DNA from: a virus
Lineage: Duplodnaviria > Caudoviricetes
DNA: 55,873 nt
Reading direction: 5' to 3' (one strand)
Virus record (IMG/VR): IMGVR_UViG_3300025128_000048
Coordinates: 1 to 55,873 of that record
The notes under the pieces were generated by a model. The model searched no databases, had not been told where the DNA came from, and saw only the letters and a program-made list of their open reading frames with translations. A program made the translations under genes and the position numbers. This document shows, piece by piece, positions 43,827 through 48,009 of this stretch (position 1 is the stretch's first letter; each line of letters starts with the position of its first letter).

Positions 43827-43854
43827 GTTATACTGATAAATAACTATTTGTCAA
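43827..43854 (-). promoter_or_regulatory. Sigma70-type promoter for the capsid gene
   Basis: TTGACA-16-TATAAC. Confidence 0.6.
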
Positions 43855-44512
43855 CACTTTTCTCTTTCGGCACTTCAATAAAATTCATATTCATGCTGAA
43901 AGACCTACGCTCACCCTTTGTGTAAAAAGGATAAACGCAGTGAAATAGTTGTGATGGAAATACGTAGAAGTCACCTACTTGTGGTTTTATTATAAAGTTT
44001 GTACAGGTATAGCCTGAAGCTGTTCCGTATGCAAACTGTATATGTCCGTTAGCAGGATGATGATCTTTGTAATCTTCTTCCCATTCTTCCTCTATTCCAT
44101 CAGGAAGTTTTAAATAACCCACACAAGATAATCTAGCACCCGTGTGAATATGTAATGGATTATATTCATTTTCAAACTGACGTACAAACCAACCTGAAGC
44201 TATTTGTAATCCATAGTTGTTATTTTCTGTATCTAAAGTTTTTGCACCCATAGAGTTTCTATATTCTGTATAGTTTTGATATTTGCCTACAAACTGCCCT
44301 AAACCTTCTTGAGCAATACGTACAATCTCATCATCAAAAGCTAACTCTTCAGAAACTTTACCTACAAGTTGATCAGAGTAGTCTTCTAGTCTGGCAGACA
44401 TTCTATCATTTAGTTTATCTACCAACTCATCTGGCATACGATAATATCCCATCGTAGGCCCAAAGGGTGCAAATAACTGCGTGTCTTTTTCAGGAGTAAA
44501 GATGATACTCAT
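43844..44512 (-). CDS. 2OG-Fe(II) oxygenase-family protein
   Basis: YNPLHIH...FPSQLFHCVYPF...ERRSFSMN. Confidence 0.8.
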   Translation of the reverse strand: MSIIFTPEKDTQLFAPFGPTMGYYRMPDELVDKLNDRMSARLEDYSDQLVGKVSEELAFDDEIVRIAQEGLGQFVGKYQNYTEYRNSMGAKTLDTENNNYGLQIASGWFVRQFENEYNPLHIHTGARLSCVGYLKLPDGIEEEWEEDYKDHHPANGHIQFAYGTASGYTCTNFIIKPQVGDFYVFPSQLFHCVYPFYTKGERRSFSMNMNFIEVPKEKSVDK

Positions 44513-45463: not shown

Positions 45464-47206
45464 TTACGCAGCTTCTTGACGTACTTCTCTGTATCTACCG
45501 TGAACAATATATGTATTATCTTCAGTATATACGTTGAAGCTATTACCATCAATTACGATGGATACCGTTGGTGTCATGCGGTCAATATAATTTAGGGATG
45601 TAACTTTAATACCATTAATAGTGTCTCCTACTACTAACTGTTCTGGAACTATCCAGTCAGCTTTACCAAGACCGCCAGACTTAGCCCATACAGGATGGTC
45701 ATTCGTAATTTCAAGTTCGTTGTTAATTACAAAGTAACCGCTACGCATATGCTTGTGCAGAACTTCTTTCACAACATAACCATCAATCATGTCATCAACT
45801 TTGATGTTTGTTACAAAGTCAATTACACCGTTAAGTTTGACTTTCATGTTTTCTGTCAAGCAGTCTGTGCCTGAACCAAGACCAACATCACCCTGATCCG
45901 TCATACCTTGACCTGCTCTGCCACCTCTATCACCTTGATCGCCTCTATCTTCACCTTCTCTACTGTAGTCACCAAACGCAGTAAAGTCTCTAGCCGTTCC
46001 AGCCGCCTGTTTTGCTTGTTCTTTCATTGCTTCTATTCTTGCTTTTTCAGCTTTCTTAGCTGCTGATCGTCTTTCTGCTAATTCCCGTAAACCTTCTCTT
46101 GCTCTTTCTGCCTTCTCTTTTATTTCTTCATCTTTTTTTGCCTTTTCCTCTGTAGACATACTAACTCTATCAAAGAAAGAGGTAAAACTATCAAATACAG
46201 GTTGACCGAATTGATCTTTTGCTATACTACCATCTGAATTACGAGCCATACCATCTGGACCCATAACAGCACCCGGCATACCCGGTACTGCATCACCCAT
46301 TTCATATCCTACATATCCTGTTGGTGTAATACCCATGCCATTTATAACATCTAGACGTGCTTGAATTTGAGAGGATGTTAATGCGACACGCCCATATTGT
46401 TTTCTATCCGTAGGAGACATGCTCCCGAAAGGGGTCTTTTGACCAGAGGAATCTAAATTAGCAGTGAGTGTATCATAATCAAGAAATCCCGTGCCAGCCA
46501 TAGGTTCTTCTCCAAATGCATACCCCATACTTCCGGGTCTATCTTTTTGAAAACCTAGTTTATCTGCACCTACTTTACCTGCAACATTTAAAGCAAGGCC
46601 CGGTAAACCACCTGAAACTGCCGAAGCAAATGTTCCTAACATGCCTATATCTGCACCTCTAACTCCTGTAGCTCCATATATATCTGCACCCGCTTTAGTT
46701 GCTTCGTTTGAGTCTTTGTATGAAACGCCGCTATACTCAAAAGTAGTGTCTTCTCTGCCGCCCCCATCTTGTTGTGCAACTGTCGTAGGTTGTTGTTGTG
46801 TAACTTGAGTTGTTTGCACAGCAGCGGCTGGATCTCCCTCTGTATATCCGGGTGGTATAGGATAAATAGGATTACCGCCTATAAATGGTATCCGTAAAGT
46901 TTGACCTGCTTCATTTGAATACGTTCTTAATTCATCGTATCTACCCGGAGTAGATGTTCCTAGTTGATCAACAAAACTTGTAGTCGTTGTTGGAGTACCC
47001 ACTGTCGGCACTGTTACCGTAGGCACGTTTGGTACATTAGGGGTAACTGGCTGAGTGCCGGGTAAAGGTGGCGGTGTGTACGTAGGAACTTGGGATTGTA
47101 TTTGAAAAGTACCGGGCTGTTGCATGTTAAATGTTCCAGTCTGTGGATTTACAACCCCACCAGTTTGAAAAGCTAAAACTGTTTGATCTTTTAATGTTTT
47201 ACTCAT
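45464..47206 (-). CDS. Putative internal virion protein with C-terminal Hint domain
   Basis: Block A CLTENMKV, block B ITNDHPVW, EQLVVGD, terminal YIVHG. Confidence 0.7.
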   Translation of the reverse strand: MSKTLKDQTVLAFQTGGVVNPQTGTFNMQQPGTFQIQSQVPTYTPPPLPGTQPVTPNVPNVPTVTVPTVGTPTTTTSFVDQLGTSTPGRYDELRTYSNEAGQTLRIPFIGGNPIYPIPPGYTEGDPAAAVQTTQVTQQQPTTVAQQDGGGREDTTFEYSGVSYKDSNEATKAGADIYGATGVRGADIGMLGTFASAVSGGLPGLALNVAGKVGADKLGFQKDRPGSMGYAFGEEPMAGTGFLDYDTLTANLDSSGQKTPFGSMSPTDRKQYGRVALTSSQIQARLDVINGMGITPTGYVGYEMGDAVPGMPGAVMGPDGMARNSDGSIAKDQFGQPVFDSFTSFFDRVSMSTEEKAKKDEEIKEKAERAREGLRELAERRSAAKKAEKARIEAMKEQAKQAAGTARDFTAFGDYSREGEDRGDQGDRGGRAGQGMTDQGDVGLGSGTDCLTENMKVKLNGVIDFVTNIKVDDMIDGYVVKEVLHKHMRSGYFVINNELEITNDHPVWAKSGGLGKADWIVPEQLVVGDTINGIKVTSLNYIDRMTPTVSIVIDGNSFNVYTEDNTYIVHGRYREVRQEAA

Positions 47207-48009
47207 GCTGGCCTCACTTGTATTTTATCTCGCATAGAATCCGGTATTGTTGATAAATCTGCTATATAACCTGTCTGATTATTAAAAGTTACAAAACCGC
47301 CTTTGTCATCTCGCGGATCTTTCATGGTAGGCATACCGCCCTGAGACATATTATTATCATCTTCAATGTCTAAATCATACATATCAAATGGCAAGTCATC
47401 TGGCATAGTAGCTTCTTCACTGTTGCCCATCTGACCCATAGCTTCCATCTGTGCCAAACCTTGCTTTGCTTCTTGACGCATACGCATTAAGTTTTCAAGA
47501 CCGATGTAACGCACTACATCTGCAGGGAATACAAACTCACCCTCGCTAAGTTGGGCAGGGATGTCATCACGTACTTCTTCTCTTAATGAACCGGATGGTA
47601 CATCATTGCCAGACTCTTCGTCAATCATACCGCCCTCATCAAGTAGGCCACCCTCGTTTAAATTGTACTCATTTTTAAGTTTCTTGTATTCCTCTACAAA
47701 TGCACGTTTTTCTTCATCAGACATGTCGGCAGTTTTACCAGTGGTAAGCATACGCTGCATTTCTTTAAAACGAGTTCTAGCACCTAACTCTTCTTCCAAA
47801 CCCTGCATACCATACGCAGCAGCATCTTCTGCTGCTTGTTGTGGAGTTTTACCCTCGCTAGTAGGAGCAGCTTTTCTTTCTCTTTCTAGACGCTTTGCCA
47901 TTTCTTCAGGCATGTTACCATCTCTAGTAATTGTACCCTCTTCTGTTTTTTCAACAGAAAAGCCGCGATTACCAAAAAGTTCCATTTGCTCCGCTACTTG
48001 TTTAGCCAT
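47203..48009 (-). CDS. Putative virion protein with DDIPAQLSEGEFV domain
   Basis: Motif familiar from tape-measure and internal virion proteins; three xxGG motifs. Confidence 0.65.
   Translation of the reverse strand: MAKQVAEQMELFGNRGFSVEKTEEGTITRDGNMPEEMAKRLERERKAAPTSEGKTPQQAAEDAAAYGMQGLEEELGARTRFKEMQRMLTTGKTADMSDEEKRAFVEEYKKLKNEYNLNEGGLLDEGGMIDEESGNDVPSGSLREEVRDDIPAQLSEGEFVFPADVVRYIGLENLMRMRQEAKQGLAQMEAMGQMGNSEEATMPDDLPFDMYDLDIEDDNNMSQGGMPTMKDPRDDKGGFVTFNNQTGYIADLSTIPDSMRDKIQVRPA

What the first reader, a model, noticed from the sequence alone, without database searches (positions are those of the whole stretch)
45464..45862. Hint domain lacking the splicing Asn at the C-terminus of a putative ejection protein
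Seen: after a Gly/Asp-rich linker (GLGSGTD) the last 132 aa begin CLTENMKV and contain ITNDHPVW (block B TxxH) and EQLVVGD, ending YIVHG-RYREVRQEAA. Known: inteins need terminal His-Asn plus a +1 Cys/Ser/Thr to splice, whereas Hedgehog and BIL-type Hint domains use only the Cys1 thioester to cleave or ligate an external nucleophile. Inference: this is not a selfish intein. It may release the 448-aa N-terminal virion protein or attach a lipid, amine or protein to its new C-terminus.
Basis: partly seen in the sequence, partly recalled or inferred. Interest (0 to 1): 0.85.

Follow-up and report, generated by a model that had tools for sequence, protein, structure and literature searches.

The report
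Self-cleaving Hint cap on phage protein
A head-module protein of an abundant type of marine phage ends in a real but very divergent intein-like (Hint) domain that has kept its cutting cysteine and lost the splicing asparagine, so it most likely just cuts itself off; it is one of several interchangeable end-pieces, and no processing has been shown experimentally.

Summary
ORF 45464-47206 (minus strand, 580 aa) ends in a 132-aa domain that starts at Cys449 after a Gly/Asp linker. It contains TNDH and ends His-Gly plus a 10-residue tail.

It is a true Hint fold: AlphaFold2 pLDDT 86.8, and VIA-align Z 14.7 to the gp41-1 intein, 14.5 to BIL domains, 14.2 to Hedgehog. Gly570 sits in register with the canonical Asn of distant relatives.

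The phage is HMO-2011-type. The gene lies between the portal and scaffold genes.

In an unbiased sample of 62 related contigs:
- 13 carriers end in this domain.
- 3 end in a second Hint type.
- 3 end in an unknown Cys-first helical bundle.
- 31 end in a basic tail.
- 12 end in nothing.

Seven of 11 module-less carriers compared stop 1-7 residues before the predicted cleavage site.

dN/dS is 0.09-0.20. Across the wider family, Asn-less copies are terminal (81 of 86) and Asn-bearing copies are internal (25 of 26).

Best reading: an N-terminal self-cleaving cap that works like a B-type BIL or Hedgehog Hint. Covalent ligation is not excluded but looks non-essential. The 'ejection protein' label is untested.

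The scan has noted other phage C-terminal Hint caps on other DNA.

The parts
45464..47206 (-). Whole carrier gene, 580 aa plus stop. It is a head-module protein of an HMO-2011-type phage, lying between the portal and the scaffold-like gene.
   Evidence: The context TerL-portal-g268-carrier-scaffold-MCP comes, and is conserved in 56 of the 65 related loci.
46832..47206 (-). N-terminal conserved region of the carrier (aa 1-125, Thr/Pro/Gly/Gln-rich). It is the only part alignable to HMO-2011 gp49.
   Evidence: 31% identity to P0123 residues 113-217. It recurs in homologs at 36-60% identity.
45977..46831 (-). Hypervariable body of the carrier. It comprises a Gly/Ala-rich low-complexity stretch (aa 126-340) and an Ala/Glu/Lys/Arg-rich helical stretch (aa 341-410).
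   Evidence: Composition is. Identity between relatives is only 27-47%, while neighbouring genes are 73-95% identical.
45863..45976 (-). Gly/Asp-rich flexible linker (aa 411-448, 32% Gly and 18% Asp), ending in Asp448 at position -1 of the predicted scissile bond.
   Evidence: Equivalent linkers precede Cys1 in all Hint-bearing relatives. Module-less orthologs end inside this linker.
45497..45862 (-). Hint fold (aa 449-570; domain residues 1-122).
   Evidence: AlphaFold2 pLDDT 86.8. Foldseek top hits are all Hint proteins. VIA-align gives Z 14.7, rmsd 1.7 A over 110 residues to the gp41-1 intein.
45860..45862 (-). Cys449 codon, which is Cys1 of the Hint domain and the predicted nucleophile.
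   Evidence: Invariant in A1 and A2. Present in 59 of 59 complete copies from the loci. Present in 49 of 49 wider-family domains aligned from profile position 1.
45695..45706 (-). Thr-Asn-Asp-His (aa 501-504), the block-B TxxH motif.
   Evidence: N, D and H are invariant in A2. HMMER aligns the motif to the corresponding motif of the KlbA intein 2jmz and RecA mini-inteins.
45497..45502 (-). His569-Gly570, at the position of the canonical block-G His-Asn. The Asn is replaced by an invariant Gly.
   Evidence: Invariant H121 and G122 in A2. At this profile position the dipeptide is HG in 33, HN in 26 and another Asn-less pair in 53 of 112 domains.
45467..45496 (-). Conserved 10-residue C-terminal tail (RYREVRQEAA), predicted disordered. 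Tyr and the penultimate Ala are invariant.
   Evidence: pLDDT is below 50 for residues 125-132. Y124 and A131 are invariant. A C-terminal Ala is found in 31 of 83 terminal-domain representatives against 1 of 53 others.
47203..48009 (-). Upstream partner gene g268 (268 aa). Its stop overlaps the carrier's start codon (ATGA). It is fused to the carrier in HMO-2011 and in many relatives.
   Evidence: 72% identity over 102 aa to the N-terminus of HMO-2011 gp49. Fused forms appear.

Best explanation
The last 132 residues are a catalytically competent but splicing-incompetent Hint domain. It acts as a self-removing C-terminal cap.

After translation, Cys449 attacks the Asp448-Cys449 peptide bond in an N-S acyl shift, helped by the block-B Thr/His. 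The resulting thioester is resolved by water or a small cytoplasmic thiol. This releases a 448-residue mature carrier that ends in its Gly/Asp-rich linker, plus a free 132-residue Hint by-product.

The terminal Asn has been replaced by Gly and nothing follows the domain except a 10-residue tail, so there is no C-terminal cleavage and no ligation of exteins.

What is shown: the fold, the residue pattern, the conservation, the position and the distribution. What is inferred: catalysis, the fate of the thioester, and the reason for a transient cap. The cap could be an assembly or solubility aid, or a benign passenger kept functional because failure to cleave would harm the carrier.
For: 1. Hint fold. 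Foldseek top hits are the BIL2 domain 6y75 (E 1.4e-4, TM 0.69), class 3 DnaB intein, Hedgehog 1at0/6tyy, gp41-1 intein and the C. thermocellum BIL 2lwy. VIA-align gives Z 14.7/14.5/14.5/14.2, with 78 of 761 chains at Z>=8.

2. Sequence-level link. The A2 profile hits P0167 (8e-18) and P0200 (5e-13), and both pass Pfam thresholds for PT-HINT, Hint and Vint.

3. Catalytic pattern. Cys1 is invariant, as are N, D and H of TNDH. His-Gly is in register with the canonical His-Asn.

4. Asn loss goes with terminal position. 81 of 86 Asn-less domains have at most 30 residues after them, and 25 of 26 HN domains have more than 30.

5. Always terminal. The domain is exactly 126 or 132 aa from the stop in 59 of 59 complete copies, on carriers of about 560-1455 aa.

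6. Module-less orthologs. 7 of 11 end 1-7 residues before the homolog's Cys1. One pair is 78% identical over 553 aa.

7. Purifying selection. dN/dS is 0.09-0.20 in the 16 of 20 comparisons with finite dS, with dS from 0.4 upward.
Against: - No experiment or proteomic datum shows cleavage.
- Only one of the five AlphaFold2 models is confident, and I could not inspect active-site geometry.
- Conservation extends across the whole domain (74% mean column identity) and into the tail (Tyr and Ala invariant). That is more than self-removal alone obviously needs, and would also fit a retained binding domain.
- The penultimate His is Tyr in L063/L064.
- One core-family representative, P0141, has the domain internally with 451 residues after it.
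- Three of the 11 module-less carriers end 26-79 residues before Cys1, and one had no hit.
Confidence: 0.6

Rival explanations
1. Thioester-mediated ligation. The Cys449 thioester is resolved by a specific nucleophile rather than by water. Candidates are a Lys of another virion protein, a lipid or another amine. The carrier's new C-terminus would then become covalently attached, as in Hedgehog cholesterolysis or BIL-mediated conjugation in Tetrahymena BUBL.
For: - The chemistry is the same as in the best explanation, and BIL2 of the BUBL locus (6y75) is among the top structural matches.
- The conserved tail beyond the fold (invariant Tyr and Ala) could recruit a nucleophile, by loose analogy with the Hedgehog sterol-recognition region described in PMC7765530 (passages read).
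Against: - The domain is optional. Only 16 of 62 resolvable relatives carry either Hint type.
- Phages with near-identical scaffold genes differ in their end-module: 8 Hint-1 rows need 8 changes on the tree.
- Module-less orthologs end at the same point with a free C-terminus, so no essential covalent link is implied.
- The tail is only 10 residues and is predicted disordered.
- The window's own tail has no Lys.
Confidence: 0.13
2. Retained, non-cleaving domain. The Hint fold has been co-opted as a structural or binding module that stays attached to the carrier in the virion.
For: - Whole-domain conservation is comparable with portal, scaffold and capsid genes: 53-92% against 73-95%.
- The tail is conserved.
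- The alternative end-pieces at the same position (basic tail, helical bundle) are not obviously self-cleaving.
Against: - The catalytic positions are invariant: Cys1 in 59 of 59 copies and 49 of 49 wider-family domains.
- A purely structural role would not predict the correlation between Asn loss and terminal position.
Confidence: 0.15
3. Benign selfish passenger. The mechanism is the same as in the best explanation, but the domain gives the phage no benefit. It spreads by recombination in a hypervariable gene end, and stays catalytically intact only because failure to excise would damage the carrier.
For: - Its distribution on the scaffold-gene tree is scattered. Hint-1 shows no clustering, with 500 of 500 shuffles as low.
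- It also occurs on an unrelated carrier in T4-like myovirus baseplate modules.
- It is optional.
- Purifying selection is expected under this model too.
Against: - There is no homing endonuclease or other drive mechanism. The domain is a 122-residue mini-Hint.
- The invariant tail beyond the fold has no role in self-excision.
- Recombination between carrier and scaffold genes would scatter labels regardless of selfishness.
Confidence: 0.1
4. A true intein, or a decaying intein remnant.
For: Weak sequence hits to inteins: 2jmz at E 0.035 and RecA mini-inteins at E 1.2-1.3.
Against: - No Asn, no +1 nucleophile and no C-extein.
- Not inserted in a conserved site of a conserved protein.
- dN/dS of 0.09-0.20 excludes decay.
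Confidence: 0.02

Closest known systems
B-type bacterial intein-like (BIL) domains (Amitai 2003 and Dassa 2004, as summarised in PMC7765530; passages read)
   Same: - Hint fold with the N-terminal and block-B motifs but without the intein C-terminal motif.
- N-terminal cleavage.
- Sits in hypervariable regions of non-conserved proteins.
   Different: - No B-type BIL profile was available to test membership.
- Pfam Hint_2 does not hit this domain.
- The carrier is a phage head-module protein, not a bacterial secreted protein.
- The domain has a fixed 10-residue conserved tail ending Ala-Ala or Ala-Ser.
Hedgehog (Hog) Hint autoprocessing domain, PDB 1at0/6tyy
   Same: - C-terminal Hint with Cys1 and TxxH and no terminal Asn.
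- The thioester is resolved by something other than a C-extein.
- Structural match of Z 14.1-14.2, rmsd 2.3-2.4 A over 119-120 residues.
   Different: - No sterol-recognition region, only 10 residues after the fold.
- 11-13% sequence identity.
- Pfam Hint PF01079 is not matched.
A-type BIL domains: C. thermocellum BIL (2lwy) and Tetrahymena BUBL BIL2 (6y75/6tmm)
   Same: Among the best structural matches: Z 14.5, rmsd 1.7-2.0 A over 114-118 residues. They have a non-nucleophilic +1 residue.
   Different: A-type BILs keep a highly conserved C-terminal His-Asn (PMC7765530). Here the Asn is an invariant Gly.
Self-cleaving C-terminal intramolecular chaperone domains of phage tailspikes and endosialidases. 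This is recalled; I saw only search listings of PMC3828593 and PMC3742440.
   Same: A C-terminal domain of a phage virion protein that removes itself autocatalytically after doing a transient job. This is a functional analogy for the 'cap' idea.
   Different: The fold and chemistry are unrelated, and no similarity was found here.
Other C-terminal Hint caps on phage virion proteins noted earlier by this scan. These are unchecked AI notes on other genomes.
   Same: A terminal Hint domain after a flexible linker on virion proteins of uncultured phages. It is optional in at least one of those cases.
   Different: Those notes describe mostly A-type-like domains with HN and a trailing Lys on fibre or tail proteins. 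This one is Asn-less, sits on a head-module protein, and shares no look-alike sequence with any noted window.

Membership tests
Hint (Hedgehog/intein) superfamily | Horseshoe-like all-beta Hint fold | tested here: met
   AlphaFold2 pLDDT 86.8. Foldseek probability 1.00 and TM 0.62-0.70 to Hint proteins only among the top rows. VIA-align Z 14.7-11.0 for 50 listed Hint chains.
Hint (Hedgehog/intein) superfamily | Nucleophile at position 1 and block-B TxxH | tested here: met
   Cys1 is invariant. N54, D55 and H56 are invariant in A2. HMMER aligns the motif to block B of 2jmz and RecA inteins.
Hint (Hedgehog/intein) superfamily | Significant sequence relationship to curated Hint families | tested here: met
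   There is no direct Pfam hit. The link is transitive: the A2 profile hits P0167 and P0200 at 8e-18 and 5e-13, and both pass the gathering scores of PT-HINT, Hint and Vint.
Canonical (class 1) intein | Terminal Asn (block G His-Asn) | tested here: not met
   His-Gly. The Gly is invariant and in register with the Asn of 26 HN relatives.
Canonical (class 1) intein | C-extein beginning with Cys/Ser/Thr, and insertion in a conserved site of a host protein | tested here: not met
   Only 10 residues follow the fold, beginning Arg or Gln. The carrier is hypervariable.
A-type BIL | Highly conserved C-terminal His-Asn (PMC7765530) | tested here: not met
B-type BIL | All intein splicing motifs except the C-terminal one, located in hypervariable regions of non-conserved proteins (PMC7765530) | tested here: inconclusive
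   The descriptive features fit. No B-type BIL profile or reference sequence was available, and Pfam Hint_2 gave no hit.
Hog-Hint (Hedgehog) | Hint module followed by a sterol-recognition region | tested here: not met
   Only a 10-residue disordered tail follows.
PT-HINT (PF07591, polymorphic toxin pre-toxin Hint) | Pfam model match and a toxin domain downstream | tested here: not met
   No PF07591 hit for P0001 or P0002 at E<=10. Nothing lies downstream of the domain.
Vint (PF14623) | Score above the Pfam gathering threshold of 27 bits | tested here: not met
   12.5 bits, E 0.13. The profile-to-PDB hit on the Vint structure 8r2c has E 0.17.
   No Pfam, PHROG, NCBIfam or PDB match. The Atlas lead to crAss cargo protein 1 scored 0.78, below its 0.9 bar, and was not confirmed by Pfam at E<=10. 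I found no proteomic data.

The most novel reading that the evidence does not exclude
The Hint domain is not a disposable cap but a ligase. Its thioester would transfer the carrier's Gly/Asp-rich C-terminus onto a specific nucleophile, such as a lysine of a capsid or portal protein or a host envelope amine or lipid. That would give a subset of one of the ocean's most abundant phage groups an enzyme-free, Hedgehog/BUBL-like covalent attachment step. The conserved Tyr...Ala-Ala tail would select the acceptor.
Probability: 0.12. Interest if true: 0.85.

Novelty: new variant of a known kind. Interest (0 to 1): 0.55.

Why it matters
HMO-2011-type phages are described as a dominant, broadly distributed marine viral group (PMC9038755, abstract and passages read). 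That paper's main text mentions neither Hint nor intein.

About a quarter of the relatives sampled here (16 of 62) finish a head-module protein with a self-processing Hint domain that Pfam does not recognise.

The family offers a natural comparison for asking what a transient thioester-forming cap does for a virion protein. Near-identical phages exist with the cap, without it, or with a different end-piece.

It also supplies a compact (122-residue), naturally Asn-less, N-cleaving Hint domain. That is the type engineered from inteins for thioester generation in protein chemistry (this comparison is recalled).

Together with earlier notes of this scan, it suggests that C-terminal Hint caps are a recurrent and unstudied theme in phage structural proteins.

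Tried and rejected
- Direct family assignment failed. Pfam, NCBIfam and PHROGs gave nothing significant for the domain or the carrier.
- tblastn of the whole protein against 50,697 phage records found nothing. The domain alone found one weak hit, Phage NCTB at E 0.08.
- Trans-ligation onto the next gene product is rejected. In the T4-like loci the downstream ORF begins MS, MP, MT, MA or MN, so there is no consistent nucleophile. In the window the next gene is the scaffold-like gene, about 55 nt away.
- Recent horizontal transfer as the cause of the high conservation is rejected. dS runs from 0.4 to saturated, and the domain is no better conserved than the portal, scaffold or capsid genes.
- The crAss cargo protein 1 lead for g268 was not confirmed.
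- PDB sequence searches with g268 and with the carrier body found only chance hits.
- The intergenic region after the stop codon has no significant RNA structure (z 0.52) and no convincing promoter or terminator.
- There is only one copy of the domain in the window.
- Fold searches for the alternative helical module found nothing credible. Foldseek's best E was 2.3. VIA-align's best Z was 5.5, to NEL-type E3 ligase domains, which is inside the noise range the tool states for helical models.
- The literature searches found no paper describing a Hint cap on a phage virion protein. Searches, on HMO-2011 biology and virion proteins, found no mention of this gene or of a Hint or intein. led to the review used for the BIL definitions. 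Paper supplements are closed. Supplementary Table 2 of PMC9038755 (protein groups) may annotate this gene, and I could not see it.
Full report
**What is there**

The minus-strand ORF 45464..47206 encodes 580 residues. After a linker that is 32% Gly and 18% Asp (aa 411-448), the last 132 residues begin with Cys449. They contain Thr-Asn-Asp-His at 501-504 and end His569-Gly570 followed by RYREVRQEAA.

**The phage**

The neighbours on the same strand are:
- large terminase (phrog_979, 9.8e-60)
- an SU10-type portal (PF23899, 2.2e-28)
- a 268-aa gene with no family
- the carrier
- a 299-aa scaffold-like gene (phrog_13678)
- a 2OG-Fe(II) oxygenase
- the major capsid protein
- an SU10-type adaptor

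The capsid protein is 86% identical to that of Puniceispirillum phage HMO-2011, and 54-80% identical to those of the roseophage CRP series. So this is an HMO-2011-type marine podovirus.

**Is it a Hint domain?**

Direct library searches barely see it:
- Pfam Vint: E 0.13, 12.5 bits against a cut-off of 27.
- PDB by sequence: only the KlbA intein 2jmz at E 0.035, aligned over the TxxH region.
- A 21-sequence profile (A2) against PDB sequences: four weak hits, all Hint proteins.

Three stronger lines settle it:
1. The A2 profile finds 568 representatives at E<=1e-3 (117 at <=1e-10). Among them, P0167 and P0200 pass the Pfam gathering scores for PT-HINT, Hint and Vint.
2. The AlphaFold2 model (pLDDT 86.8, pTM 0.79) is all-beta with a disordered last eight residues. 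The other four models were poorer, at 73.7-54.5.
3. Foldseek's top rows are exclusively Hint proteins. VIA-align gives Z 14.7 (rmsd 1.7 A, 110 residues) to the gp41-1 intein, Z 14.5 to the Tetrahymena BIL2 and C. thermocellum BIL domains, and Z 14.1-14.2 to the Hedgehog autoprocessing domain. 78 of 761 chains score Z>=8.

**Catalytic pattern**

In A2 the invariant residues include Cys1; Asn54, Asp55, His56 and Pro57; His121 and Gly122; Tyr124; and Ala131.

At the profile position of His-Gly, 112 wider-family domains read as follows: HG in 33, HN in 26, and other Asn-less pairs in 53 (KS, SG, KG, KA and others). So Gly570 occupies the place of the splicing Asn.

Asn loss goes with terminal position:
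- 81 of 86 Asn-less domains have at most 30 residues after them (median 10).
- 25 of 26 HN domains have more than 30 residues after them (median 162.5).
- All 49 domains aligned from position 1 start with Cys.

The family therefore keeps the N-terminal chemistry everywhere. It keeps the C-terminal chemistry only where there is something downstream to release.

**Conservation and position**

- Of 160 homologs, many match only the last ~130-160 residues, at 67-91% identity, always running to their last residue.
- All 93 distinct C-termini I aligned show the same Cys/TNDHPV/VHG pattern.
- In IMG/VR, 65 loci hold relatives.
- In 59 complete copies the domain is exactly 126 or 132 residues from the stop, on carriers of about 560-1455 aa.
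- The exceptions: L059 is a 174-aa ORF without the Cys and is probably broken. L063 and L064 have Tyr for the penultimate His.
- 56 of the 65 loci show the same order, TerL-portal-g268-carrier-scaffold-capsid.
- In those loci the Hint domain is 53-92% identical to the window's copy. Portal, scaffold and capsid are 73-95% identical. The carrier body is only 27-47% identical.
- dN/dS of the domain is 0.09-0.20 in the 16 of 20 comparisons with finite dS, and dS runs from 0.42 to saturation.

This is long-term purifying selection, not decay and not recent transfer.

**A second context**

Nine loci (L050-L056, L058, L059) carry the domain with none of the window's other genes.

In L055 the neighbours are T4-type baseplate wedge proteins (phrog_438, 2.3e-78). 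The 1404-aa carrier matches phrog_358 positions 577-1394. The next ORF matches the same profile from position 1421. So the domain sits where a protein that is continuous in that profile is divided.

The downstream ORFs begin MS, MP, MT, MA or MN. I therefore reject trans-ligation onto them.

**The end of the carrier is a cassette site**

HMO-2011 gp49 (762 aa) is a fusion of the window's g268 (72% identity over 102 aa) and the carrier's N-terminal region (31%). It ends in a different module beginning ...VI-Cys-Thr-Glu. CRP-345 gp62 ends in a related module after a poly-Gly run.

To avoid bias I fetched loci through the adjacent scaffold-like gene. At least 597 relatives exist, and the best 80 were kept. 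Eighteen had no resolvable upstream ORF. The other 62 ended as follows:

| Carrier end | Loci |
|---|---|
| Short basic tail (...GGLASKK) | 31 |
| This Hint family (Hint-1) | 13 |
| No module, ending in a Gly/acidic stretch | 12 |
| Second Hint-like module (Hint-2) | 3 |
| Cys-first helical module | 3 |

Hint-2 begins Cys-Phe-Ala-Ala-Gly-Thr, also lacks Asn and also ends Ala-Ala. Its Pfam signals are Hom_end_hint at 3.7e-6 and Vint at 1.3e-3, both below threshold.

I compared 11 of the 12 module-less carriers with Hint-bearing carriers. L134 was dropped because it is identical to L133. The results:
- 7 stop 1-7 residues before the homolog's Cys1.
- 3 stop 26-79 residues before it.
- 1 had no hit.

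In the closest pairs, L118 is 78% identical to L041 over 553 residues. L090 ends ...DMGVFGP where L062 reads ...DMGVI followed by Cys1.

On a tree of the scaffold-like gene, the 8 Hint-1 rows need 8 changes, at least 6 of them forced by well-supported branches. They are no more clustered than shuffled labels. The tree held 52 rows, because 11 of the 63 rows given were left out by the tool as too gappy. The window's nearest neighbours on that tree carry a Hint-1 end (L078) or a basic tail (L072, L073).

**Mechanism**

The evidence fits a self-removing cap. An N-S acyl shift occurs at Asp448-Cys449. The thioester is resolved by water or a small thiol. This releases a 448-residue carrier with the same kind of Gly/acidic C-terminus that module-less orthologs have naturally.

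The definitions in PMC7765530 (passages read) make it work like a B-type BIL or a Hog-Hint domain. It fails the defining His-Asn of A-type BILs and of inteins, and it lacks a sterol-recognition region. Membership of B-type BILs could not be tested.

Ligation to an external nucleophile is chemically possible but seems non-essential, given the optional and exchangeable distribution. A retained structural role, or a benign selfish passenger, cannot be excluded.

Nothing I ran supports or refutes the label 'ejection protein'. Its place between the portal and scaffold genes is all that points to a head-internal role.

**Prior knowledge**

- Searches found no description of such a cap on a phage virion protein.
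- The main HMO-2011-type comparative paper contains neither 'intein' nor 'Hint' in its main text.
- BFVD holds many uncharacterised phage proteins with a similar fold, some auto-named 'Hint'.
- This scan has already noted other C-terminal Hint caps on phage proteins in other genomes. None is a sequence look-alike of this one.

I therefore rate it a new variant of a known kind.

Noticed in passing
L124:2408-2749 (= HMO-2011 gp49 C-terminus; also L069:7271-7612), L094:2436-2744, L097:2451-2750, L151-L230: A Cys-first module of about 100-120 aa occupies the same end position as the Hint domain in HMO-2011 itself. Its conserved start is ...V-I/L-Cys-Thr-Glu, and it has an invariant Gly-Tyr-(His) and a Pro. 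IMG/VR holds 188 relatives, and it is C-terminal after a Gly/Ser/Asp linker in every copy I examined. AlphaFold2 gives a confident five-helix bundle (pLDDT 91.6). There is no credible structural relative (best Z 5.5) and no Pfam hit. The Atlas finds only unnamed viral clusters of about 95-120 aa.
   Followed up: partly
L091:2549-2941, L121:2555-2950, L077:698-1090: A second, unrelated-looking Hint-like end-module (Hint-2) sits on the same carrier family. It has Cys1 followed by Phe-Ala-Ala-Gly-Thr, a TGTH/TGNH block B and no His-Asn, and it ends Ala-Ala like Hint-1. The A2 profile does not detect it at 1e-5. Pfam gives Hom_end_hint at 3.7e-6, below threshold.
   Followed up: partly
L072, L073, L079, L099, L101 and 26 more loci: The commonest carrier end (31 of 62) is a short, strongly basic tail with a repeated Gly-Gly-Leu...Lys motif, ending ...GGLASKK. 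Its function is unknown.
   Followed up: no
window 47203-47206: The 268-aa gene's stop and the carrier's start overlap (ATGA). The two genes are a single ORF in HMO-2011 (762 aa) and in many metagenomic relatives, so the window has a split form of a protein that is fused elsewhere.
   Followed up: partly
L055:4257-10058 (also L050-L054, L056, L058): In T4-like myovirus baseplate modules, the Hint-1 domain ends a carrier of about 1330-1407 aa that matches the first part of phrog_358. The next ORF, starting 3-25 nt later, matches the following part of the same PHROG. The Hint domain marks the point where a protein that is continuous in that profile is divided.
   Followed up: partly
P0141 (800 aa, metagenomic representative): This is the only core-family representative in which the domain is internal (residues 224-344), with 451 further residues after ...VHGDY. 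It could be a genuine fusion or a lost stop codon.
   Followed up: no
window 45467-45472 and homologs: The protein ends Ala-Ala (or Ala-Ser) in essentially all core-family members. A C-terminal Ala is enriched in terminal-domain relatives (31 of 83, against 1 of 53). From recall, non-polar ...Ala-Ala C-termini resemble bacterial protease degrons, which might dispose of the freed domain. This is untested.
   Followed up: partly
window 43844-44512: A 2OG-Fe(II) oxygenase gene (PF13759, 9.8e-18) lies between the scaffold-like and capsid genes, and its start overlaps the scaffold gene's end. It is present in only a subset of related loci (for example L001-L006, L018, L019, L042) and absent from the rest.
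   Followed up: no
P0150, P0161 (metagenomic representatives): Bacterial-looking secreted or lipoprotein-type proteins carry the same Asn-less Hint type (Cys-Leu-Leu-Glu...VHGDY). P0150 has it directly after a canonical HN-type Hint domain. So the subfamily is not confined to phages.
   Followed up: no
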